Source: Novakomyces olei
Lineage: Eukaryota
Length of the DNA: 64,000 nt
NCBI GenBank assembly: GCA_016906335.1
Contig: JADEYG010000001.1
Location: 744,001-808,000, forward strand
Direction: 5' to 3'
Below the pieces are notes generated by a model that had not been told where the DNA came from, ran no database searches, and was given only the letters and a program-made list of their open reading frames with translations. The position numbers and the translations under genes were made by a program. Positions 6,530 through 48,820 of this stretch are shown piece after piece (position 1 is the stretch's first letter; each line of letters starts with the position of its first letter).

Positions 6530-7293
6530 ATAGTGGGTAATGCACATTGAGGTTTTATTAAATATTCAAGAAATTGCATTCAGAGCGGAGCTTGAACTGG
6601 ACGGCGAAGGCGAGATTTCTGGTTTTTCTTAGTGTGTGCGCTTTGGAAGGAGAGAGGAATTAACGTGTGTACATATTCTTATGAAGGAGAAGGTTTGAAA
6701 GATATTTGAGGAATAGACGAAAGCGAGGAGTAAATGTAAAAGTGGAAGCAGAGCATAAAAGAGACAAGTCAAAGAGTTTACACAAAACTGAATTATGCCA
6801 AATCATGTCTTTAAAACGGCAAAGCTATTTTCCTAGTGATTGAATATGATAGTGTGCAAACGGACCAATTAGACAATTGGAAATCACCTTAACGGCCTCA
6901 ATGGCCATATAATATCGTCACCATATGGATTGTAAATAAAATATTGATTAGTATCGGTTTTTCTGGCTTACTTGGTCTGTATGATAAGCATAGTAAGTCG
7001 GATTTGGGATGAGTGGCTATTTTAGATCTATATTTGTATCATCAGCCATTATTATTGTTTATACTATTTATACTATTTATACATATATATTTTTTTACTT
7101 TTTTGGTTATTATTACTTTTTATATATTTTGTTTCCTATTTTATTAATATAATATCTGCACAGTTTCTCATACTTTTCCTATTAAATCATAAATTTTCCT
7201 GTAAATAAGTACAGACCTATCAATCCACCGGCAATAAACAACACGTTTGAACTGCCCAATCACACTGAGGATTGTGCTTTGACTGACCTGTCA

Positions 7294-9085
7294 ATGGCGG
7301 TGAGAACGCGTTCAGTCAAAGAGCCGCGCACGCGGAATGCACAGCCCGATCTGACACCGATCCCCGAAACGCCAAGACGATCAAGTCGCGTTCGTAAGCA
7401 GGCAGCACAAAATGCAGTTTCTGCCAACGATTCTACCAATGGAATCGTGAACAGTATCGGTGAGCGAAGCTCACAAAAACCGTTTGTTTTGCCTCCTAAA
7501 TTAGACTCAGTTGAACAAGGCACTTTTGCTTTGCCCAATGGTTCATCGACCAGGGAAGAACCCAAAATGCTGGCGTCTCATGATTCGGCAGAGCGTCCAA
7601 TAACAACCGACGAGTTTGGCGGGCCAATTGGCAATATTGCCATTATTATTTTTTCTCCTACTCTGATTTATTATCTGTGGTACTGCGCTACTTTTAATGA
7701 CGGACAGATATTCCTGCCGTCCTCCTCCCTCTCACTCCAGCAATGGGCTGCTACTATTGCCCAGCATATTGTAGAGCACGCTTTCCCGCACGCCAAAGCC
7801 TGGGCTATTTTTCTGACTTTTGTTGTGTGGCAAGCAGTCATGTATGTGTACATGCCGGGCATTTACGCAAAAGGACTGCCTCTTGGAAATGGAATGCGAT
7901 TGGATTATTATTGCAGTGCTATTTGGAGCTATTACGCTACAATAGCCGTGGAGCTGGCTCTCCATTTCTCCTCCATTTTTAAACTTTACACTATTATCGA
8001 TGAGTTTGGGTCAATTATCTCCGTGTCTATTATTTTCTCTTTTGCCGTTAGTGTCGGCATTTACGCTTGTGGCCGGATTTTCAAGTGCGAGTATAGGCCC
8101 AGTGGCAATGTTATCCACGATTTTTTCATGGGGACCATCTTGAACCCACGAATTGGGAAATGGCTGGACTTGAAAATGTTTGCTGAAGTTCGGTTTCCTT
8201 GGTACGTGCTTAGTACTTTGGCTATTGCCACTGCTCTGAAGCAATATGACGTTTATGGTGAAGTCTCGCCTCAAGTCTATTTCATCGTTCTCGCCACGTT
8301 CTTGTACGCAAATGCCTGTTCTAAGGGCGAAGAGTGTATCATTCCGACGTGGGATATGTATCGTGAGAAATGGGGGTTCATGCTCATCTTTTGGAATTTT
8401 GCCGGTGTCCCTTTCTCTTATTGTCACTCGATCATTTTCTTGGCGTACCATGATCCTGCGACTTACAACTGGCCTTGGTACTATAATGCTGGTTGCCTGA
8501 TTTTGCTGTTGGGTGCTTACTTTGTGTTTGATACTTGCAACAGCCAAAAGAACTGCTTTCGTCAGCAAATGTTTGGTACTTATTCACCACGCAAGGCGTT
8601 TCCGCCACTGCCTTGGCTCGTCGTTAAAAATCCTACTTTTATAAAATGCGCAAATGGTGGAACACTATTAACTAGCGGATGGTGTACGTTATATTCCTAT
8701 GCGAATTCTTTTGTTTTCTTGATTTGTTTTTTTCTATTTAATTTCGTTATTTTGTTGTGTCTTATTAATTTTTCTATTCTCATTGTTTATTTAATTCTAA
8801 CTTTTAGACCGCTACGCTCGTAAAATTCACTACTCTGCAGACCAATTGCAATGTCTTTCTTGGAGTCTCATTACAGGGTTTTCATCACCTATTGCATACT
8901 TTTATCCCGTGTTCTTTTTTGTCATGGTCCTTCACCGTGCATCGCGCGACATCAGCCGCTGCAAGGAAAAGTATGGAAAGGACTGGGACGAGTATTGTCG
9001 CATTTGTCCGTACTTGTTTATTCCGGTAAGCTGAGCTTTTTTGACTTTGCTTCAAACTAACCTTTTTTCACAGTATATATTCTAG
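7294..9085 (+). CDS. ERG4: Delta(24(24(1)))-sterol reductase
   Basis: [59 protein letters not shown]; two 3' introns. Confidence 0.93.
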
Positions 9086-9399
9086 ACGTATGCTAAGCCG
9101 TGTGGCTTGAGTAAAAGAGCAAGAGCAGAAAAAGGGCCTAGACTTTTGTACAGGGATTCTGCGACAATCTACCTTTATAATCAACGGGTCCTGTATTGTT
9201 TAAAAGAAAAAATTTTATTTGTCTCTCATAGAGAAGTTTGGGAGTAGCATGAAAAAGGCTGGGCATGAACAATGGTAGTTTTAATTTTGCACAAAAAGAC
9301 AAACTTATTATTTTCATGCACAGTACATTTCCTGCATATTTTTGTTATCAACATCTATTATAATTCATTACTAAAATCACATGGCACTAGTGCCTCATT

Positions 9400-10276
9400 A
9401 ATTAATTTCGTTTCAGCTTCCGGTTCTTTTTCTTCTTTGCCAATTTTTCAGCCTTGTAAGCATCTAGGAAACTACCACTGGCTTTTAAACGTTTTGTTTT
9501 TTTGCCAACCGAACCTTTGCCCTCGTACTCCTCGTCTTCGCTGGATGAAGAATGCTCGTTCCGTTCTTGAACAACCGGCTTTTCTATTGTAGAACGTATG
9601 CGTTTTTGCAGTGTTGGATTTAGCGATGCGTATGCCTTGTTTGCCGGAAATTTTTGCGACGAGGAGGCTACGTTCCCCAGTCCTGCAGCTTGTATTTTCT
9701 TCAAGCTCGCATCTTCTTCTTGCTCGCCCTCGCTCTCAGATCCCTGTGCAATCCATGAAGAGACGATACTTCTTGTTACGCTCAACGACGCATCAATTTG
9801 TGCAGAGACTTTACAATTAGTTGAAGCTGTCAAAAAAGGCTTTATTCGTACTTTTCTTTGATTCTTCATAGTCGATCCTGGCGGCCATATACGCCGACAA
9901 CCAAGATGAATTATTATGAATTATTATGAATTAAATTATGAATTAAATTATGAATATATTATGAATATATTATTACATTATGTAAAGCGTTTGCGTCGAT
10001 ATAAAAATCACCATTACGTATACTAAATAACCGTTCAGGATGACTTGTAAATAAGAATAGTATAGTGCCCTTATATAATATACTACAATAAAAAGTTTAT
10101 GGTATATAGTAAACGAAAAAATGGTAATATAATAAATTATTGTACACGGCGCGCGCGTTCCCACGTTTTAGTGAAAATCTTAATGCAATTAGCTTACGCA
10201 TTTTAAATAATTGTGGGTTGCTTATGTAATAAATACATTTCAAATTTATAGAGGTCCAAACCTTTACAGCACAGAT
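9400..10276. repeat. Direct segmental duplication, copy 1 (pairs with 12664-13502)
   Basis: Near-identical sequence from AATTAATTTC to CCTTTACAGCACAGAT in both copies. Confidence 0.97.
9402..9869 (-). CDS. Small Lys-rich fungal protein (DUF3245-like), intact copy
   Basis: 155-aa ORF with SIVSSW...GLG...LQKRI and a KKKKNRK tail. The family assignment is from motif memory only. Confidence 0.6.
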   Translation of the reverse strand: MKNQRKVRIKPFLTASTNCKVSAQIDASLSVTRSIVSSWIAQGSESEGEQEEDASLKKIQAAGLGNVASSSQKFPANKAYASLNPTLQKRIRSTIEKPVVQERNEHSSSSEDEEYEGKGSVGKKTKRLKASGSFLDAYKAEKLAKKKKNRKLKRN

Positions 10277-10547
10277 GGCCTTTTATTTATACCCATGATT
10301 TCGTGAGGCAGTTATGCCGCCGGGGCAATGTATTCGGCGTTAGGCGTTACCGCAAAAAATTGCTTAAATCCGCGTTGTGTATTCGCGCCGATTAAAGATG
10401 CGGTCAAATCGTAGTCATACTAGTTTTAACACCAAGCAATTTACGCCGGCTTTAGGGCATTATAAATTAGAACGTTTCGGAGTTAAGAGCTGGCGTCCCC
10501 TAACGCCGCTCGAGAAATACGAAGCTGTGCGCAGTCACGTCTGGCCC

Positions 10548-10950
10548 GCGCTACGTATGACGGGCGAATCAAGAGCCGATCTAGAGCACTCACACCAGCG
10601 GCGACTTATGGCCGGGAGTGAAATGGTGTGCAACGAATATATACTCAGCCACGGGCTCAAGATTGTTCAAGATCTACGACAGCTGGAGAGCATCCACATA
10701 ATCGCGCACTAATAAACTTAGCGTCGGTCCCCATGAATTATTTTCCAGTGAGATTTTGTCAGTGCGCGTATAAGGAAGGGTATCTCGCTCTGCCTTATCG
10801 GCAGATGAAGTCCGAAGACTGCACCCAATCGGGCATATCTTCTTGGTCCTCCAAGGAGCTGCTGCTACATAGGGATTCTCTGGAATAAACACGAGCACCT
10901 TACGGTTGAGCCGATTGGCCGCTGTAACTGTTGACTGGGTCAACTGAGCT
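10548..10950 (-). pseudogene. Diverged, internally deleted duplicate of the SnoaL-like locus
   Basis: 10548-10710 aligns with 11000-11160 (3' flank plus last codons VRDYxxALQLS). 10720-10950 aligns with 11628-11878 (upstream region). The rest of the CDS is missing. Confidence 0.85.
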
Positions 10951-11123
10951 GGCGCTACGTATGACGGGTAAACCAAGGGCCGATTTTAAAGTATGGCCGG
11001 CGCTATGCATGACAGGAACATCAGGGGCCGATCTAAAGCCCTAGCACCAGCGGCGATATACCGCCGGAAGTGAAGTGGTGCAACGGCTTTACACTCAGCT
11101 ACGGGCTCAAGAGAATTCAAGAC

Positions 11124-11510
11124 CTACGACAGCTGGAGCGCGTTCATATAATCGCGCACTCTGTGAATCTTTCCTTCGTGTACTGTGAAAAACCAAACAT
11201 AATCCAAAACTTTTGGCTCACCGCTCGGTACGCTGGTATGGTGGCCCGTTGCCTCAACAATTATTTCGTTGCCAATGGTACGTGCGATCACGGGCTCAAA
11301 CGACCCGAATTTGACAAAAGTGGGAAGTTTCTCCATGTAGCTGCTTATGGCCTGCTTGCCCTCCAACTTCGTGGGCATGCCCTCTGGAGCAAACGGAAAT
11401 TCATGCACCGCATCATCCGCGTATAAATCAACATAGGCAGAGATGTCGTTGGACTGCAAGGCCTTGCGCATCTCCTCAAGCAGAGGTGGGAGTTGCTGAG
11501 AGGTGGACAT
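11124..11510 (-). CDS. SnoaL-like / NTF2-fold (PhzA/B-, YesE-like) protein, intronless
   Basis: DLYADDAVHEFPFAPEGMP.KLEGKQAI..Y...GKI.RVRDYMN matches the SnoaL_2 pattern. TATA-like TATTTAAA ~50 nt upstream. Confidence 0.88.
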   Translation of the reverse strand: MSTSQQLPPLLEEMRKALQSNDISAYVDLYADDAVHEFPFAPEGMPTKLEGKQAISSYMEKLPTFVKFGSFEPVIARTIGNEIIVEATGHHTSVPSGEPKVLDYVWFFTVHEGKIHRVRDYMNALQLS

Positions 11511-12663
11511 TTTGGATAAGTCTGGAAAATCCACAAGCCTATGAGTGCGTTTTCATTTAAATAGTCTAGAGCTCGGTATAATCGGTCGGGCTTCGGCTTT
11601 GAATTCCCCCCGATTCCGAAATATAAGAGCGTCGGTCCCTATGAATTATTTGCCAGAGTGAGATTTTGTGAGAGCGCGCAGGGGTCTCCCTCTGCCTTAT
11701 CGCCGATAAAGCCCGAAGGCTGCCCAGTCGGGAGCAATTTTAAAGTTACGAATAAATATCGTTGGTCTTCCCAAGGGGCTGCGGTTATATAGGGTTTTCC
11801 CTGGACAAAAACGCCTTAGGGTTGTCGGGCAGATTGGCTGCTGCAACTGTTGACCGGGTCGGGTCGATCGACTGAGCTTGCTGGTAGCGCAGCCTCAGTG
11901 GGGCTTCGAACTTGACGATTTTGGCAAAACCAAAATCGACAAGCATCTGCTAGTCAGTTTCCAAGAATTTAGGCTTGACAAAAGAGCAAGTTAGAAGACC
12001 GAGAAGCAACTTTTCTGTTTACATTCTGTCGTCCGGTAGAATTAGCATTAGCGAGCTGAACGAGGCACACGTGGACCTCGTTGCAAAAGCTTTTCGCGAG
12101 ATCACCGCAGAAGATTAGGTGGATTCTCTTAATATATCCCAGTTCTAGCTATTGGGGCCTCTGTTTCGCATTTTCAATAGATATGCTATCTGACGTCATT
12201 TCATTGTATGCCGCGATAATTATCTCGAAAATATGGACACAGGTGCTAGAGCCCAATTCCTAACAAAACTCGGCCTCAGTCTCTATTTGCGCTGTCTTTG
12301 CGCGACATTCACCTTTTTGACGGCTCCATAATGTACCGCTCCTGGCATGCAGCCGCAATTACCCTGCTTCAGGCCACTTCTCGTTCCGCGTTATGACCAA
12401 TCTATGTTTCGTGCACACGTCACCTCGGCCCTACCCATCTCAAACTCCTAGTACTTGGTAGACACGTAATTCTAATAGCGATCCTCTCCATTGTCACTAC
12501 GGTCGTCCAAAATATGAATATCCGCTATAAATCATGGACTTTGCCACCTTTATACGCTCATCAAGGTCCTCTTCCGACAGTCCGAGCACTTCATTATCGA
12601 GCCTGTCGTCATATCTCGAATCCCCATTGGGAAAGAACACACGGCTATACATTCCCTGAACAA

Positions 12664-13502
12664 AATTAATTTCATTTCAGTTTACGGTTCTTTTTCTTCT
12701 TTGCCAATTTTTCAGCCTTGTAAGCATCTAGGAAACTACCACTGGCTTTTAAACGTTTTGCCTTTTTGCCAACCGAACCTTTGCCCTCGTACTCCTCGTC
12801 TTCGCTGGATGAAGAATGCTCGTTCCGTTCTTGAACAACCGGCTTTTCTATTGTAGAACGTATGCGTTTTTGCAGTGTTGGATTTAGCGATGCGTATGCC
12901 TTGTTTGCCGGATATTTGCTCGCCCTCGCTGTCAGATCCCTGTGCAATCCATGAAGAGACGATACTTCTTGTTACGCTCAACGACGCATCAATTTGTGCA
13001 GAGACTTTACAATTAGTTGAAGCTGTCAAAAAAGGCTTTATTCGTACTTTTCTTTGATTCTTCATAGTCGATCCTGGCGGCCATATACGCCGACAACCAA
13101 GATGAATTATTATGAATTATTATGAATTAAATTATGAATTAAATTATGAATATATTATGAATATATTATGAATATATTATGAATATATTATTACATTATG
13201 TAAGGCGTTTGCGTCGATATAAAAATCACCATTACGTATACCAAATAACCGTTCAGGATGACTTGTAAATAAGAATAGTATAGTGCCCTTATATAATATA
13301 CTACAATAAAAAGTTTACGGTATATAGTAAACGAAAAAATGGTAATATAATAAATTATTGTACACGGCGCGCGCGTTCCCGCGTTTTAGTGAAAATCTTA
13401 GTGCAATTAGTTTACGCATTTTTACTTTGAAATAATTCTGGGTTGCTTAATGTAATAAATACATTTCAAATTTATAGAGGTCCAAACCTTTACAGCACAG
13501 AT
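12664..13502. repeat. Direct segmental duplication, copy 2
   Basis: Matches 9400-10276 apart from substitutions, small indels, the 68-bp deletion and extra GAATATATTAT units. Confidence 0.97.
12672..13065 (-). pseudogene. Frameshifted second copy of the 9402-9869 gene
   Basis: A 68-bp deletion (equivalent to 9653-9720) splits the ORF into two frames. The stop also comes two codons earlier than in copy 1. Confidence 0.9.
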
Positions 13503-13537
13503 CCTTTCTTCGCGCGGATCCTTTCTACGCGCGCGCT

Positions 13538-16500
13538 ATGAGTCAGGAGGCGGTGATCGATAAAGACGCCTTTTACCGGCGCACGAAACTATTTCAAGAT
13601 GCGCTCAAGGTGTGAAATTTGAAACTGCCGTAACCTCCTCTGACTTTTTTAGGGCGAAAGCCAACGCGACTCTGAACGCGTACTCGCCGGTGTGGACGGA
13701 GTGCTGGTGATTATCGACCAGTCTAATGAAGAAAATCCGTATACCAAATCAGCCGCGTTGCATGTAAGCATCTATTTGGTTATGTTTCGATATTTTGACA
13801 CCCGTAGAATTGGTTCCTAGGCTACGAGTTCCCGCGTACAATAATGTACGTGTCGAAGGACAAGGTTTGCTTCCTCAGCAGCCCGAAAAAGAGTATGTGT
13901 CTCTATAGAAAAGATCGATTTGGAGTGTCACTAACTTTTCCAAAGTTGCCGTGCTTGAAGCACTGAAAAACGGGCCTGTTGACATTGAACTTTATACCCG
14001 TACAAAAGACGCGGACCACAATGATCAACAGTACGAAAGTTTACTGCAGGTTATTGCTGGCCAAGGTGTAGGTGTTGCATGGGGTTTTATTGCTTGTGTT
14101 TTGAGATCATCTTTGCTCTACTCTTTCGGCGTTTGTTTGATTCTTGTTGCGCATGGAATCATAGGACTATATACTGTTTTAGGCCAAGTTTCCGTTTGAC
14201 TTTGTTGGCTTTTCCGTGTTTTATAAATTTATTAATGCGCTTTTATGTATTTTTGATGTTTTCTCCTAAATTCTTTAGCTCTCGCTCTATCTGTTTATTT
14301 TTTAATTGCCCTCTTATCCTTATGGAGTCTAACTGATCAGAAACGTGTTGGTATATTTCCAAAAGATCAGGCGGTGGGTGCCATGTATGAGGAATGGAAG
14401 CCGCTGTACGAAAAGAAAGGATTCGAAGAGTCCGACGTCGGTCTCGGCGTAGCTGCACTTTTTGCTGTAAAAGACGAAGAAGAAGATAAGTGTGTGCGAC
14501 AGGCGGCCAAGGCGACTTCCTTTATGCTCACGAAGCCCTTTGTCAATGAAATGTCTCGTATTATTGACGATGGCAAGCGAGTCACTCATGCTTCCCTGTC
14601 AGAGACGATTGAGAGCAAACTGGAATCCCCCAATATCTTCTCTTCAAAATCGTTTAAGCCTGAGCCAGGTTTCGATTCTTCTGTACTGGATTGGTGCTAC
14701 ACACCTATTGTACAAAGCGGTGGAGTATACGATCTCAAACCTTCAGCTGCCTCTGATGAACGAAATTTACACAATGGTGTAATTGTAGCTGAATTGGGTC
14801 TTCGCTACAAATCATACTGTTCAAATATAGGCCGAACGTACCTGATTGACCCAAATTCGCACCAGGAGAAAACGTACGAGTTTCTGCTTTCGTTGCAAAA
14901 GAAAGTCGTCGAGTCGATGACTGATGGTGCAATTATCAGTGATATTTACAGTGGAGCATTGGGACAAATTCGTGCTAAAAAGCCCGAGTTGGAAGGCAAT
15001 TTTGTAAAAAATATCGGTTCAGCAATCGGCATCGAGTTTCGTGAAACGAGTCTTAACTTGAATGCCAAAAATGCGCGTAGCTTAAAGGCCGGCATGACTT
15101 TTACTTTGAGCCTCGGGTTTCAGGGAATCACGAACGCAAAGCCGCAAGACGCAAAGAGCAAAACGTACAGTTTGCTTCTAATTGACACTGTGGAAATCAG
15201 GAAAGACGGACCTGCCGCGCTTCTCACAGACTCTCCAAAGCAGCTCGGAGAGATTTCGTTCTGGTTCAACGAGGATGAGGAGGAAGAAGAGGAAGACGAT
15301 GAAGTAGAGGACTTCAAGGACACTAGCCGAAGGGCCAGTGGCCGGGCAGATCGTTCAGCGTCTGTAATAACAACGGGAAAACGTACAAGAAACGCGGAGA
15401 AAAAAGTAGATGAGTCGTCAGAGCAGCGAAGACGTGAGCACCAAAACGAGCTTGCAGCCAAAGTGCAGGAGGAAGGTATGAAAAGGTTTGAGAATGGTTC
15501 AACAGTCAGTAAAAGTGCGGAGACTCCAGTGTTCAAAAAGTACGAGTCTTATCGCCGGGAGACGCAGCTGCCCTCTGCGATTGCAGAGCTGCAAATCCTG
15601 ATTGATAACAAGGCCCAGTCGGTCATATTACCGATTGAGGGTCGCCCAGTTCCCTTCCACATTTCAACGCTAAAAAACGTGAGCAAAAACGATGAGGGTG
15701 ATTTTGTATTTTTACGATTTAATTTCGTATCGCCCGGTCAAGGGGTTGTCAAAAAAGACGAGCAGCTGTTTGATGATCCTAACGCCTCGTTTATCCGCAG
15801 TCTTACGTACAGAAGCCCCGATGTCGGCAGGGCGTCACACATATTCAGCGCCATTCAAGAGATGAAAAAGCTGGCTACAAAACGCGAAGCAGAGCGCAGA
15901 GAAATGGCGGATATTGTTGAGCAAGATAATCTGACCGAGATCAAAAACAGAAGGCCGCTAACCCTGACTGATGTCTATGCTAGGCCTGGCCTTGACGGGA
16001 AGCGGGTACCCGGCCAATTAGAAATCCATCAGAATGGTGTCCGTTACCAATCGCCATTGCGCTCAGACCACAGGATCGATATCCTGTTTAGCAATATGCG
16101 TCACCTGTTTTATCAGCCCTGTGATCATGAGCTAATTGTCATTATTCATATACATCTAAAGACACCCATACTTGTGGGCAAACGTAAAACTTACGATGTC
16201 CAAGTGTACAGGGAGGCCTCGGATGTGCAGTATGATGAGACGGGCAACAGAAAGCGTAAATACAGGTACGGAGACGAAGATGAATTGGAACAAGAACAGG
16301 AAGAGCGGAGACGCAGAGCGCAGCTAAACAAAGAGTTTCGTAATTTTAGTGAGAAAATTGCTGAAGCTTCTGATGGCAAAGTTGATGTGGATATTCCGTT
16401 TCGTGAATTGGCGTTTTCTGGAGTTCCTTTCCGTGGAAACGTATTGCTCCAGCCGACCACAGAGTGCCTTGTCCAGCTTGTCGATCCGCCTTTCACTGTA

Positions 16501-17104
16501 ATCACACTGGGCGAAGTTGAAATAGCTCATCTGGAACGTGTGCAGTTTGGTTTGAAAAACTTTGATCTCGTCTTTATCCTCAAGGATTACAAAAAGCCTC
16601 CCATTCACGTAAATACTATCCCGGTTCAGCAGCTGGAAAGTGTCAAAGATTGGCTGGATTCTGTGGATATTCCCTTCTCTGAGGGCCCCTTGAACTTGAA
16701 CTGGACTCTTATTATGAAGACAGTGAATGAAGATCCCGCCGAGTTTTTCCGTGGTGGAGGCTGGGAGTTTCTGTCCAGTAACTCTGAGCAGAATAGTGAA
16801 GACAGTGAAGAGGCAGAGAGCGAGTTTGAGGCAAGTGGCAGCGATTTTGCCGATGAAAGCAGTGATGACGACGGGAGCGCTTTTGATGAAGGCGCTAGTG
16901 ACGATTCTGGGTCCGGGTTCGACGAGGATGAAGAGTCTGGTGAAGATTGGGACGAATTGGAGGCAAAGGCGAAGAAGGGTAAGTTAATTCACTCTAGAAG
17001 AATACAAGGAACATTAAAAGGGTTCAAGGTTCGTATTTGCTAACATTTGTATAGCTGATTCTCGACAAGCGGATGAAGATCGGCCAAAGAAGCGTCGGAA
17101 GTAG
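13538..17104 (+). CDS. SPT16: FACT complex subunit Spt16
   Basis: [49 protein letters not shown], acidic tail ending WDELE; several 5' introns and one 3' intron. Confidence 0.98.
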
Positions 17105-45996: not shown

Positions 45997-46134
45997 TGGA
46001 AAAGTGTGTCGCAAATTCTACGTGTGCTGCTCATAGAAAAATAAATATGCGATAACAGATTTCGTAAAAATTCGACGAAAAATAGTGGCTGCTGAGTTTT
46101 TCCCGTATACTTAAAATAACATCAATATTATAAA

Positions 46135-46538
46135 AATATAAATATAAATATAAATATAAATATAAATATAAATATAAATATAAATATAAATATAAATATA
46201 AATATAAATATAAATATAAATATAAATATAAATATAAATATAAATATAAATATAAATATAAATATAAATATAAATATAAATATAAATATAAATATAAATA
46301 TAAATATAAATATAAATATAAATATAAATATAAATATAAATATAAATATAAATATAAATATAAATATAAATATAAATATAAATATAAATATAAATATAAA
46401 TATAAATATAAATATAAATATAAATATAAATATAAATATAAATATAAATATAAATATAAATATAAATATAAATATAAATATAAATATAAATATAAATATA
46501 AATATAAATATAAATATAAATATAAATATAAATATAAA
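46135..46538. repeat. (AATATA)n microsatellite, ~67 units
   Basis: Perfect hexamer array. Confidence 0.99.
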
Positions 46539-46714
46539 CAGTCATTAAGAAACTATTGAAATATGGTATACACAACAGGAAAAGCGCTTCAATGAACAGA
46601 CGATAGTTTTATTATACGAAAAATATCTTGATCAAACTAATGCACACGTGGATTCGAATGGGTCAACAAGTCAGGTTTAATTGGTTGGAAAAAAATAATA
46701 ATTTATTCGTAGGT

Positions 46715-48820
46715 TTAATGAGCGAATCTAAAATCTAAACGCTTTGCTCCTTCGTCTTTTGTGTACAATGTGTAGTCAATGCGCTCGTCCTCGCTCAATG
46801 CCTGCCAAACTCGCTCGCGTCTGGCATTGCATTTGACATAGTACAATTTGACAAGTAAAAACAGGACAATATTGAATGCGCATATGGCCAAGAGGATACG
46901 ATTACCCCTATGATCTGTTTGCCAAGTTAGCAAAGGTTATATAATCGTGGTTGGCTGTCGTGCTTAAAATTGAGCTAAAAACGCGATGGATGGCACGTGC
47001 CCAACACTGCAAACAACATTTAATTGAATGAAAAACAAAGAAACAAAAATAATAAAAAAAAACAATAAAATTAGTTTCAACAACTTACAATACGGTCGAT
47101 CGTCTTCGCGGTAGATGTTTGCGCCAACGATGTTCCCGCCTTGAACAAACATGTTGTATAGGGCAGCACTTACCGCCCGAGCTCTAACACTATTTGAGTT
47201 GCGTGAGTTCCAGGCTACAAGAATTGCATGGCAATAAGGGTAAGCAAGAACGCACGAAAGAAGAGCATATCTGATCCAGTAACTAGCACTGTCCGGAATC
47301 AGGACTAGTGACAAGAGAAAGGGAAACATCCAAATGTTTGAAATCATGGAAACGAGCGATCGTTCGCCCACCCATTCACTGATCCTAGAGATAATCAAAA
47401 GATTGACTCCGTAAACGAAAAATGCGGGAATACACAGCAAATTCGCTTGCAGAGTCGAAAAGCCCATTTGACGGATGATAAAGGTGAGATACTGTTGAAT
47501 TGGAGTAGGAGGGATATAGCATGTTAGACCAACGAGATAGAGAGGCCACAAATCAAAGTCTTTAAAGCACTTCCACAAAAGCACCGGGGTCACTGCTTGC
47601 CGATTATTCATGTCGCCCTTTGATGGATCATCCCTCAGCAGCCTGTTCACAAGAATACGCTCTTCATGCTCATTGAACCATCCTTTTCCACGTCCTCGGC
47701 CCGCCGTTTGGTAGGGGCTAGCGGGCATCATAACAAAACTTACAAGGCCAATAATTAGAGTGAGCAGACCTTCAATAAGGAAAAGGTATCGCCATCCAGA
47801 TAGGCCGGAAAGACCACGCATCTGCAGGATTCCAGCGGCTAAAAGTGCGCCGACTATTTGGCATGTGCTCAATACAGTCCAAAACCAAGAGAGTCGAATG
47901 GGCAGCTCTCTCTTCTTGTACCAATAAGTCGTGTACAAGACGAGATCGGGGACGAATCCGCCCATAGCCAGGCCGCTAAAAGTCAGAACAGATCAAGACA
48001 AGAGGCTCATGAGAGGGAGAGAAAATGCAGGGCTAATTGAACAATGAAATTGAGTTGATAAAATAAACAAATAAACAATAAAGATGACGATGACGATGAC
48101 GATGGAACACTAAACAAAAGCCCAAACGCCATTCCATAATCAATTTCAAAATCATCCTGATAACAGAGGATTCAATACCATATACACCTAATTTGTTAGC
48201 AGCATTTCAAACCTGATCACAACTCACTTGCACGCAAAGTAGCCCGCACGACTCAGTAGAGCTGCTTGACAAGCAGCAATGATAGACCAAGACGTAATTA
48301 TCAATGGAATCCATCGATCAGGTCCGACCTTTTTCGATATCAAACCGGACGGGAGTTCAGCTGCCAAGAAAGAAACGAGAAAGATCGTTTGGCCTGTATT
48401 AAAATCGTTTGTATTCATTCCGAGTTCAGGTAACATATTGTCTGAAATCGCCTGATTGGCGTTTCTTCTAATAAGATCGAGAGCAAAAAACATTACCCAA
48501 GCCCAAGTGATAACACGGTAATCAATCTTTCTCCGCAACTTGAGTTCTTCTTCCGCAGTCCATGTAAATGTTGGATCAAATCTATGAAGCCCTTCGTACC
48601 GAGCCTTTTCGTATATCCCACGCCAGTACTCGGCAATCTTTGGGTCTGAAAAAACATGCTTGCCCGTGCTACCATAGTCTTCAACACCAGGATCAGACTC
48701 TTCATCGCTTGTACGCTGAGACGATGTAGCGGTTGCTAGAGTATTGTCATCACGGCCTCGTGTTTCGTATACTTCGTACTGCTTTTCGCTCGCTGTGTCC
48801 TTTGCCGGTGGAGACGCCAT
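46715..48820 (-). CDS. MFS anion:cation symporter (allantoate permease family; Soa1/YIL166C-like)
   Basis: RKIDYRV, ELPS.LISKKVGP.RWIP, GWRYLFLIEG, LRDDPSKGDM.NRQ, and C-terminal RLDFRFAH. Confidence 0.9.

What the first reader, a model, noticed from the sequence alone, without database searches (positions are those of the whole stretch)
11124..11510. Intronless, bacterial-type SnoaL/PhzA-like gene: horizontal transfer candidate
Seen: a 128-aa intronless ORF inside the insert, with a TATA-like element, among mostly intron-rich housekeeping genes. Established: the DDAV.EFPFAP.G.P..LEG..AI and GKI...RDY.N pattern is typical of bacterial SnoaL_2/YesE/PhzA-B-like NTF2-fold proteins (cyclases, isomerases, small-molecule binders). 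Inference: the gene was acquired from bacteria and possibly acts in binding or detoxifying metabolites.
Basis: partly seen in the sequence, partly recalled or inferred. Interest (0 to 1): 0.7.

Follow-up and report, generated by a model that had tools for sequence, protein, structure and literature searches.

The report
Bacterial NTF2-fold gene in a fungus
A small intronless gene of a bacterial enzyme family sits between two conserved housekeeping genes of an early-branching ascomycete fungus, and was most likely picked up from soil bacteria, an ordinary kind of event.

Summary
The ORF is real: window 11124-11510, minus strand, 128 aa, Pfam SnoaL_2 (E 8e-15). The predicted fold is confident (pLDDT 94) and closest to YesE and PA3332.

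The host is a fungus. Its SPT16 is only 57-60% identical to the nearest annotated fungi, all Taphrinomycotina.

Every named relative of the ORF found in five searches is bacterial, with 55% identity at best. In a maximum-likelihood tree the fungal protein lies inside four nested, well-supported clades whose labelled rows are all bacterial. Its sister is unresolved and its branch is long.

It keeps 29 of 32 highly conserved family positions, although only 67 of 128 positions match the consensus. Its codon usage is host-like.

In bacteria the family usually forms a two-gene cassette with a divergent TetR repressor and is sometimes plasmid-borne. No TetR remnant exists in the fungus.

The gene lies in a 2.4-kb insert flanked by about 0.85-kb direct duplications, between ERG24 and SPT16, which are adjacent in Pneumocystis. 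A decayed tandem copy without the CDS lies beside it.

Verdict: bacterial-to-fungal transfer is well supported. Function (a small-molecule enzyme or binder) is inferred. Expression and age are untested. This is a new member of a known kind, of moderate to low interest.

The parts
11124..11510 (-). Intronless CDS, 128 aa plus TAG stop; SnoaL_2 / NTF2-fold protein of the YesE/PA3332-like bacterial family
   Evidence: ORF; PF12680, E 8e-15; YesE 1s5a, E 1e-15; pLDDT 94.1; TM 0.88 to 1s5a; nested among bacterial sequences; 29 of 32 conserved columns kept
11556..11563 (-). TATA-like element TATTTAAA, 46-53 nt upstream of the ATG; A at -3 of the ATG
   Evidence: Read directly. It is a consensus resemblance only, with no expression data.
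10277..12663 (.). 2387-bp insert carrying the gene; GC 49% against about 40% in the DNA to its left; no terminal inverted repeats; no other copy in the window
   Evidence: boundaries; GC; no terminal inverted repeats; no other copy in the window; contigs of X1 and X3 cross the right junction; depth equals that of the flanks
9393..10276 (.). Left copy of the flanking direct duplication. It holds an intact 155-aa gene (9402-9869, minus strand) and an AT-rich intergenic stretch.
   Evidence: about twice the read depth over the shared parts
12664..13502 (.). Right copy of the flanking duplication (97-100% identical). A 68-bp deletion relative to 9654-9719 breaks the frame of the small gene. It is followed by the SPT16 start region.
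   Evidence: offsets 3264 and 3196 differ by 68
10991..11860 (.). Tandem unit 2: 3' flank, intact CDS and 5' flank
   Evidence: blastn of the insert against the window
10539..10941 (.). Tandem unit 1, a decayed copy. 10539-10710 matches 10991-11160 (80%) and 10720-10941 matches 11628-11860 (69%). The 467 bp corresponding to 11161-11627 (codons 1-116 plus promoter) are missing.
10674..10712 (-). Remnant of the last 12 codons plus stop of a second gene copy (LVRDYVDALQLS*, against RVRDYMNALQLS* in the intact gene)
   Evidence: end of ORF 10674-10976, minus strand; family D6

Best explanation
The ORF is a gene of bacterial origin that has become resident in the chromosome of an early-branching, Taphrinomycotina-like ascomycete. 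It encodes a cytosolic NTF2-fold (SnoaL_2) protein of the YesE/PA3332-like family. In bacteria this family is typically the single structural gene of a small cassette controlled by a divergently transcribed TetR-type repressor, and some copies are plasmid-borne. That arrangement is typical of ligand-induced genes that modify or sequester a hydrophobic small molecule.

The fungus took only the enzyme gene. It now has a eukaryotic-looking leader (TATA-like box, A at -3) and host-like codon usage, and it has stayed under purifying selection.

Shown: fold and family, nesting in the bacterial tree, physical integration, the pattern of conservation, and the bacterial TetR context.

Inferred:
- It works as an acid/base enzyme or binder for a hydrophobic metabolite or xenobiotic, using the conserved pocket residues Tyr30, His36, Glu37, Glu86, Asp120 and Tyr121.
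- It is expressed.
- The transfer is old relative to the local rearrangement that placed the cassette between ERG24 and SPT16.
For: Family and fold:
- PF12680 scores 55.7 bits against a cut-off of 27.
- YesE 1s5a matches at E 1e-15 and PA3332 1z1s at E 2e-9.
- The AlphaFold model has pLDDT 94.1 and pTM 0.86. Foldseek gives TM 0.88 to 1s5a.

Bacterial affinity:
- One search returned 12 hits at 36-53% identity. The three with a species name are Acidimangrovimonas, Thioclava and Nguyenibacter.
- The profile search found 1719 proteins at E<=1e-10. Every species-named row among the 120 listed is bacterial.
- All 74 confirmed loci in bacterial genomes come from bacteria, with 51% identity for the best full-length match.
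- 47 plasmid records match, with 48-50% identity on Komagataeibacter, Gluconobacter and Rahnella plasmids.
- The 10 listed nearest Atlas clusters are 93-100% Bacteria.
- All species names in the 30 clusters looked up are bacterial.

Tree (75 rows, 132 columns, IQ-TREE LG+C20): the window protein lies inside clades supported 100/100, 99/94, 98/89 and 97/84. Their labelled rows are Actinomycetota, Pseudomonadota, Myxococcota and Acidobacteriota.

Integration:
- Fungal genes lie on both sides.
- Contig X1-5 covers 10755-12714 and X3-18 covers 12584-12739, both across the right junction.
- Insert depth is 1064 against 1193-1205 in the flanks.

Selection and amelioration:
- 29 of 32 columns that are >=90% conserved are kept, while 67 of 128 match overall. 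In the permutation test, 0 of 100,000 shuffles did as well.
- The CAI-like index is 0.81, equal to host ORFs (0.79-0.83) and above bacterial homologues (0.73-0.79). GC3 is 60.5%.
- 4 of 16 mismatches at the 70-90% conserved columns replace a consensus Arg.

Bacterial context:
- A divergent TetR lies upstream in 34 of 78 loci that had >=700 bp upstream, and in 26 of the 35 best-ranked ones, L002-L036.
- The TetR is annotated on two plasmids.

Ancestral neighbourhood: a Pneumocystis oryctolagi gene model fuses ERG24 and SPT16.
Against: - No donor is resolved. The sister group is a polytomy and the end branch is long (1.08 against a median of 0.23). Long branches can be misplaced.
- The best identity to anything known is 55%, so the transfer is old or the donor lineage is unsampled.
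- No genome of a close relative of the host was available, so absence from relatives was not tested. The absence of fungal homologues rests on protein collections in which only part of the rows carry names.
- There is no expression evidence.
- An invariant Trp (position 10) and a 95%-conserved Gly (position 21) of the bacterial family are replaced.
- The neighbouring copy has decayed.
- GC3 (60.5%) is above most host ORFs (40-52%; one at 63%).
- The substrate is unknown. YesE and PA3332 are themselves uncharacterised 'putative isomerases' (entry titles).
Confidence: 0.75

Rival explanations
1. The gene was acquired from bacteria but is now a silent relic: the last intact member of a decaying tandem array, with no current function.
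For: The adjacent unit has lost codons 1-116 and the promoter. The branch is long. Trp10 and Gly21 of the family are replaced. No RNA-holding run is on record (this is a blank, not evidence of silence).
Against: The 128-codon frame is open and colinear with the bacterial proteins over residues 1-128. Substitutions avoid conserved columns: 29 of 32 are kept against 67 of 128 overall, and 0 of 100,000 permutations did as well. The model folds confidently. The non-coding flanks of the two units have diverged 20-31% while the CDS stayed intact.
Confidence: 0.15
2. The gene reached this fungus second-hand, from another eukaryote (for example another fungus) that had acquired it earlier from bacteria. 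Alternatively it moved here recently from another locus of the same genome, so the 2.4-kb insertion is not the bacterial transfer event itself.
For: The flanking duplications are 97-100% identical, so they look young. The internal tandem units are only 69-80% identical and the protein is at most 55% identical to any bacterial protein, so both look old. About 2 kb of the insert has no bacterial similarity; only 11127-11552 does. Codon usage is already host-like.
Against: No eukaryotic homologue was found in any search. Gene conversion between the two direct repeats could keep them alike, which would make the insertion look younger than it is. The insert is at single-copy depth, so no donor locus is visible.
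Confidence: 0.2
3. This is an ancient eukaryotic or fungal gene inherited vertically and lost from all other sampled fungi.
For: The host lineage is poorly sampled: the SPT16 best hit is 60% identical. SnoaL-type domains are common in fungi (recalled, not tested here).
Against: The protein is nested four supported nodes deep among bacterial sequences. No fungal member of this subfamily turned up among the rows listed or named: the 12 hits, the 120 listed of 1719 profile hits, the 150 listed of 544 representatives and the 30 clusters looked up. The gene is intronless in an intron-rich neighbourhood. It interrupts an ERG24-SPT16 adjacency shared with Pneumocystis.
Confidence: 0.04
4. It is bacterial contamination or a chimeric assembly.
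For: The insert has a higher GC than its surroundings. The protein is absent from public protein sets.
Against: It is embedded in a 64-kb stretch with fungal genes on both sides. Contigs from the likely source run and from a run of another study cross the right junction (X1-5 and X3-18). Insert depth equals flank depth, and the duplicated parts have about twice that depth. Apart from the CDS, the insert has no bacterial coding similarity. GC 50.6% and GC3 60.5% are below 9 of 11 bacterial homologues for GC3.
Confidence: 0.02

Closest known systems
YesE of Bacillus subtilis (PDB 1s5a, 'putative isomerase')
   Same: It is the best solved relative, at E 1e-15 and about 30% identity. The model superposes at TM 0.88 and rmsd 1.0-1.6 Å. 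The EFP[FY]APEG loop and RDY.N strand are shared.
   Different: It has no experimentally known function. His36 of the window's subfamily is Phe in YesE (alignment). It is more distant than the 45-55% identical TetR-linked bacterial proteins.
PA3332 of Pseudomonas aeruginosa (PDB 1z1s) and the digoxigenin binders engineered on this scaffold (4j8t, 4j9a, 5bvb)
   Same: Same fold and motifs (E 2e-9). The pocket of this scaffold can hold a steroid-sized ligand. That the binders were built on 1z1s is recalled, not taken from a call.
   Different: About 26% identity. Its native function is unknown. A search for 'PA3332' listed 10 papers, all with a single mention (listing only).
TetR-linked 'nuclear transport factor 2 family protein' of soil and plant bacteria, e.g. 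on Komagataeibacter xylinus plasmid pA and a Rahnella aquatilis plasmid
   Same: The closest sequence family, at 45-55% identity over the full length, with the same length (128-133 aa) and all family-conserved residues.
   Different: The bacterial genes sit 14-110 bp from a divergent TetR/AcrR gene. The fungal gene has no TetR or remnant of one, has a eukaryotic-type leader, and lies on a long branch.
SnoaL-like protein transferred from bacteria to Pythium (oomycetes), mSphere 2016, PMC5023847
   Same: A precedent for interdomain transfer of a SnoaL-type gene from soil bacteria (Actinobacteria or Proteobacteria) into a filamentous eukaryote (passages read).
   Different: [quoted passage not shown] The window's protein has one domain and no signal peptide. 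Whether the two belong to the same subfamily was not tested.
Limonene-1,2-epoxide hydrolase (e.g. 1nu3, 1nww)
   Same: The nearest solved structural neighbours with a characterised enzyme activity (TM 0.75-0.80, about 22% identity). It shows that this fold can carry out acid/base chemistry on hydrophobic substrates.
   Different: Sequence E-values are only 0.002-0.04. Residue-level correspondence of the catalytic residues was not examined here.

Membership tests
Pfam SnoaL_2 (PF12680), NTF2-like superfamily | Profile score above the gathering threshold | tested here: met
   55.7 bits against 27, residues 12-117
Pfam SnoaL_2 (PF12680), NTF2-like superfamily | Alpha+beta cone fold (three N-terminal helices packed on a curved beta-sheet) | tested here: met
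   AlphaFold pLDDT 94.1. Helices at 9-19, 23-27 and 52-59; strands at 30-37, 66-79, 82-93, 99-111 and 114-120. At least 500 PDB matches at E<=0.001 (the tool counts at most 500); every chain in the printed rows is an NTF2-type protein by entry title.
YesE/PA3332-like, TetR-linked bacterial subfamily | Conserved motifs Y-x-x-D-A-V-H-E-F-P-[FW]-A and R-D-Y-M-N, and length about 130 aa | tested here: met
   Alignment A1: invariant A34, E37, D120, Y121; near-invariant Y30, H36, F38, P39, A41, G51, E86, G113, all present. 29 of 32 columns conserved at >=90% are kept.
YesE/PA3332-like, TetR-linked bacterial subfamily | Divergently transcribed TetR/AcrR regulator immediately upstream | tested here: not met
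   Present in 34 of 78 bacterial loci, and in 26 of the 35 best-ranked. tblastn of 10 bacterial upstream minus-strand ORFs taken as TetR against window 9000-14000 gave no significant hit outside the CDS. The only hits at E<0.01 overlap the CDS and come from two over-long ORFs (L018, L019) that run antisense through the bacterial NTF2 gene.
Phenazine biosynthesis PhzA/B (PF03284) | Profile score above the gathering threshold | tested here: not met
   15.2 bits against 24, E 0.015
SnoaL polyketide cyclase (PF07366) | Profile score above the gathering threshold | tested here: not met
   18.7 bits against 28.4
Ketosteroid isomerase-related protein (TIGR02096) | NCBIfam score above the cut-off | tested here: not met
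   31.3 bits against 97.1
Bacterium-to-fungus horizontally transferred gene | Recipient sequence nested within donor-domain sequences with branch support | tested here: met
   Inside clades supported 100/100, 99/94, 98/89 and 97/84, whose labelled rows are all bacterial
Bacterium-to-fungus horizontally transferred gene | Absent from relatives of the recipient; no syntenic orthologues | tested here: inconclusive
   No fungal homologue was found, and ERG24 and SPT16 are adjacent in Pneumocystis. No genome of a close relative, nor the host's own genome, could be searched.
Bacterium-to-fungus horizontally transferred gene | Physically linked to host genes (not contamination) | tested here: met
   junction-crossing contigs X1-5 and X3-18, and equal depth
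Bacterium-to-fungus horizontally transferred gene | Expressed in the recipient | not testable with these tools
   No listed holder run is on record as RNA

The most novel reading that the evidence does not exclude
The enzyme half of a widespread, partly plasmid-borne bacterial 'TetR + NTF2' sensor-and-response cassette has been domesticated by a scarcely sampled, deep-branching ascomycete lineage as a constitutive defence against a bacterial or plant small molecule in soil. The odd local anatomy is a degenerate tandem array inside a 2.4-kb segment bracketed by about 0.85-kb direct duplications of the target. On this reading it records integration of a circular DNA by a single crossover, a route for moving acquired genes within fungal chromosomes.
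Probability: 0.1. Interest if true: 0.6.

Novelty: new member of a known kind. Interest (0 to 1): 0.35.

Why it matters
Transfers from bacteria to fungi are well documented, so one more case does not change the picture. Three things give it some value.
- The recipient appears to be an early-branching ascomycete lineage with no annotated close relative, where little is known about acquired genes.
- The donor family is a large (at least 1719 clusters), uncharacterised bacterial cassette with a dedicated TetR sensor. Its independent retention in a eukaryote argues that the NTF2 protein alone confers a useful activity, and gives a second system in which to find its substrate.
- The insertion architecture (large flanking duplications and a decayed tandem copy) is a clean natural example for studying how foreign or relocated DNA settles between conserved housekeeping genes.

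Tried and rejected
- **Host genome.** It is not held, so other copies, relatives and synteny could not be searched.
- **RNA.** No RNA holder is listed. The laid runs were DNA contigs only. Parts of the stretch without cover in X3 and X4 say nothing.
- **Insert versus window.** blastn of the insert against the whole window found no copy outside the insert.
- **TetR remnant.** None was found in window 9000-14000. Six-frame pieces of the insert matched the 83 fetched loci only at the CDS or its antisense frames.
- **Terminal inverted repeats.** None at the insert ends; only five short internal pairs of 12-22 nt.
- **Other ORFs in or at the insert.** Seven ORFs inside the insert gave no Pfam family at E<=1. 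The flanking 155-aa gene, scanned in the same call, gave only one sub-threshold hit (TMV_coat, E 0.12). A 'LVDFGFAK' peptide at 11785-11949 (minus strand) looked kinase-like by eye but had no Pfam support.
- **Sigma-70 promoter and terminator scan of the insert.** Not above shuffles: 5 found against 2.7±1.6 expected for promoters, and 1 against 2.3 for terminators.
- **JGI metagenome scan for close relatives.** 9 loci, the best at 51% identity.
- **Earlier findings of this scan.** Nothing relevant.
- **Literature.** 'SnoaL, TetR, divergently' gave 3 papers, none on this cassette by title or abstract (listing only). 'PA3332' gave 10 papers, listing only. 'horizontal gene transfer, Taphrinomycotina, bacteria' gave 101 papers with 15 listed; none was read beyond the listing.
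- **Global MAFFT alignment of the two tandem units.** It mis-aligned the deletion. The blastn coordinates are used instead.
- **Catalytic residues.** Residue-level comparison with limonene epoxide hydrolase or ketosteroid isomerase was not done, so no specific chemistry is claimed.
- **Supplements.** Those of PMC5023847 were not opened. They might show whether the Pythium family overlaps this one.

Full report
**Observation**

ATG is at 11510, the TAG stop at 11124-11126, and it has 128 codons with no interruption. A GTG 24 nt upstream would give 136 aa. Bacterial homologues align from residue 1 of the ATG form, so the 128-aa reading is right.

A TATTTAAA element lies 46-53 nt upstream of the ATG, and position -3 is A (read). 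These are resemblances, not evidence of transcription.

**Host**

The window is fungal. Long ORFs carry UCH, ERG4/ERG24, SPT16, a sugar transporter, a Zn2Cys6 cluster, DnaJ-TPR, an RRP6-like exonuclease, a PRP39-like domain, PGAP2IP, a PCI domain, DUF2434 and MutL domains.

The 928-aa SPT16 exon finds its best matches in Saitoella, Pneumocystis, Schizosaccharomyces, Neolecta, Protomyces and Taphrina. Identity is only 57-60%. The host is therefore an ascomycete close to or within Taphrinomycotina, with no annotated close relative in the collection. No whole genome is held.

**What the protein is**

- Pfam SnoaL_2 scores 55.7 bits (cut-off 27). SnoaL, DUF4440, PhzA/B and NTF2 are all below their cut-offs. 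The NCBIfam models are also below their cut-offs.
- The best solved relatives are YesE (1s5a, E 1e-15) and PA3332 (1z1s, E 2e-9). Engineered digoxigenin binders come next, followed by weaker matches (E>=1e-4) to MonBI/BII, limonene epoxide hydrolases and ketosteroid isomerases.
- An AlphaFold model built on a 24-sequence alignment is confident (pLDDT 94.1, pTM 0.86). It superposes on YesE at TM 0.88.

**Who has it**

- A word-indexed search of 5.8 billion clusters gave 12 hits at 36-53% identity. The three with a species name are alphaproteobacteria.
- An exhaustive phmmer search over 1.84 billion representatives gave 544 hits at E<=1e-3, 68 at E<=1e-10 and only one at E<=1e-30.
- A profile search gave 1719 proteins at E<=1e-10. 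Among the 120 listed, identity to the query is 44-55%. The rows with a species name are all bacterial: Acerihabitans, Acidimangrovimonas, Acidisoma, Azospirillaceae, Martelella, Silvibacterium and Paraburkholderia.
- Thirty clusters were looked up by exact sequence. Every species name is bacterial: Tsukamurella, Streptosporangium, Streptomyces, Nonomuraea (two), Actinopolymorpha, Flindersiella and Chloroflexota.
- The query itself is not in the 15-billion-protein collection, so it seems to be unannotated.
- The GTDB genome scan returned 74 loci, all bacterial. The closest are Acetobacteraceae/Acidocellaceae, Acidobacteriales, Acerihabitans, Acidimangrovimonas and Pseudonocardiaceae, at 45-51%.
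- JGI metagenomes gave 9 loci, the best at 51%.
- The ten listed nearest ESM-Atlas clusters are 93-100% Bacteria.
- 47 plasmid records carry a homologue. Copies at 48-50% identity occur on a conjugative Komagataeibacter xylinus plasmid, two Gluconobacter sphaericus plasmids and a Rahnella aquatilis plasmid.

**Tree**

A quick tree of 104 rows and a careful IQ-TREE (LG+C20+F+G4 by PMSF) of 75 rows by 132 columns agree.

For the careful tree I dropped 12 rows: the distant outgroup representatives, four long or distant metagenome rows (L080-L083) and P0027, which has a long branch and odd composition. I also dropped 17 of the 25 rows of the distant actinobacterial clade and kept 8 of them as the outgroup.

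The window protein lies inside nested clades supported 100/100, 99/94, 98/89 and 97/84. All labelled members of these clades are Actinomycetota, Pseudomonadota, Myxococcota or Acidobacteriota.

Its immediate sister is unresolved. It sits in a polytomy with P0024, an actinobacterial clade and the Acetobacteraceae/Acidobacteria-rich clade. Its end branch is 1.08 changes per column, against a median of 0.23. No donor can be named, and a long branch can be misplaced. Moving it outside all bacteria would nevertheless break four supported branches.

**Is it in the fungal chromosome?**

Logan contigs of the probable source run cover 10247-10723 and 10755-12714. The second crosses the right junction by 51 nt. 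A contig of a run from a different study (X3, record 18) covers 12584-12739 with no differences.

The insert has the same word depth (1064) as the flanks (1193-1205). The duplicated parts have about twice that depth.

The contigs at the left junction start exactly 30 nt into the repeat, as de Bruijn unitigs do. A second run of that other study (X2) holds 81% of the insert's words at identical sequence.

**Selection and amelioration**

Against the 61 bacterial rows of its clade, the query matches the consensus at 67 of 128 columns. It matches at 29 of the 32 columns that are >=90% conserved, 20 of 36 at 70-90%, 10 of 28 at 50-70% and 8 of 32 below 50%. A uniform scatter of its mismatches reached 29 of 32 in 0 of 100,000 permutations. 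The three losses are W10L, G21N and V115I.

- GC is 50.6% and GC3 is 60.5%. Ten host ORFs have GC3 of 40-52%, with one at 63%. Eleven bacterial homologues have GC3 of 55-89%.
- A CAI-like index built on the host ORFs gives 0.81. Host ORFs give 0.79-0.83 and bacterial homologues 0.73-0.79.
- The host's codon bias is weak, so this is modest evidence.

**Bacterial context and likely mechanism**

In 16 close loci scanned with Pfam, a TetR_N ORF lies directly upstream on the opposite strand in 10.

With seven of those TetR proteins as tblastn probes, a divergent TetR was found within 1.2 kb upstream in 34 of 78 loci that had at least 700 bp upstream. Five of the 83 loci had too little. It was found in 26 of the 35 best-ranked loci (L002-L036). 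In most of these the match ends 14-110 bp from the start codon of the NTF2 gene, and the TetR proteins are 46-69% identical to the probes.

Two annotated plasmids show the same pair, amid unrelated neighbours.

The family is thus a self-contained two-gene module: a ligand-sensing repressor and one NTF2-fold protein. This is the usual layout of inducible genes that modify, hydrolyse, isomerise or sequester a particular hydrophobic compound.

I therefore commit to an acid/base enzyme, or less likely a binder, acting on a hydrophobic small molecule in the cone-shaped pocket. Candidate functional residues are the family-invariant Glu37, Asp120 and Tyr121 and the near-invariant Tyr30, His36 and Glu86. 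This is inference. YesE and PA3332 are uncharacterised, and I did not map catalytic residues of characterised NTF2 enzymes.

The fungus carries no TetR gene or remnant. Only 11127-11552 of the insert has bacterial protein similarity.

**Local anatomy**

The gene lies in a 2387-bp insert (10277-12663). It is flanked by direct duplications 9393-10276 and 12664-13502, which are 97-100% identical.

- The left copy holds an intact 155-aa gene.
- The right copy has a 68-bp deletion that breaks that frame.
- The insert has no terminal inverted repeats and no other copy in the window.

Inside the insert, the gene belongs to a two-unit head-to-tail array.

- Unit 1 (10539-10941) matches the 3' flank and last 12 codons (80% identity) and the 5' flank (69% identity) of unit 2 (10991-11860).
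- Unit 1 lacks the 467 bp that hold codons 1-116 and the promoter.
- The remnant reads LVRDYVDALQLS*, against RVRDYMNALQLS* in the intact gene.

The array is much more diverged than the flanking duplications. Either the cassette existed long before it was placed here, or gene conversion keeps the flanking repeats alike.

ERG24 and SPT16, which bracket the whole structure in the same orientation, are adjacent in Pneumocystis oryctolagi. One 1311-aa gene model there has an N-terminal part 49% identical to the window's ERG24, followed by SPT16. The insert is therefore derived.

**Comparison with what is known, and verdict**

Bacterium-to-fungus transfers of single metabolic genes are well known. 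A SnoaL-like gene of bacterial origin has been reported in Pythium (PMC5023847, passages read). That protein has two domains and is secreted.

The present case is a new member of that known kind. It is notable mainly for the poorly sampled recipient lineage, for the uncharacterised TetR-linked donor family, and for the unusual insertion architecture.

Expression, substrate, age and donor remain open.

Noticed in passing
window 9393-10276 and 12664-13502: An 840-884-bp direct duplication (97-100% identical) brackets the insert. It holds a 155-aa Lys/Ser/Glu-rich gene (9402-9869, minus strand). The ESM Atlas places this gene nearest DUF3245/NOP19-like nucleolar proteins (score 0.95 with low recognition, so a lead only). 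The right-hand copy has a 68-bp deletion that shifts the frame. How a target duplication this large arose is unexplained; single-crossover integration of a circle or repair synthesis are possibilities.
   Followed up: partly
window 7186-8823 and 13530-17043: ERG24 and SPT16 are neighbours on the same strand here. They are fused in one Pneumocystis oryctolagi gene model (P0289, 1311 aa), which implies a conserved adjacency across distant Taphrinomycotina. That public gene model is probably an annotation merge.
   Followed up: partly
window 10548-10580, 10952-10984, 11000-11032 (weak copy at 10372-10404): A 33-nt motif (GCGCTACGTATGACGGG…GCCGAT) recurs three to four times in the 3' flanks of the tandem units, twice in tandem 48 nt apart (family D4). 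Its significance is unknown.
   Followed up: no
window 13080-13200 and 9905-9975: An AT-rich microsatellite-like run (ATTATGAAT / ATATATTATGAAT units) lies in the shared promoter region. In this bin read depth rises to about six times single copy, so the motif is repeated elsewhere in the genome.
   Followed up: no
loci L007, L009, L013 (Pseudonocardiaceae): In these actinobacterial loci a PNPOx-like (pyridoxamine-phosphate-oxidase fold) gene lies immediately downstream of the NTF2 gene. This may hint at a flavin or F420-dependent partner step in some lineages.
   Followed up: no
window 46001-47000: A 1-kb bin with only 22% GC stands out from the window mean of 43%. It was not examined.
   Followed up: no
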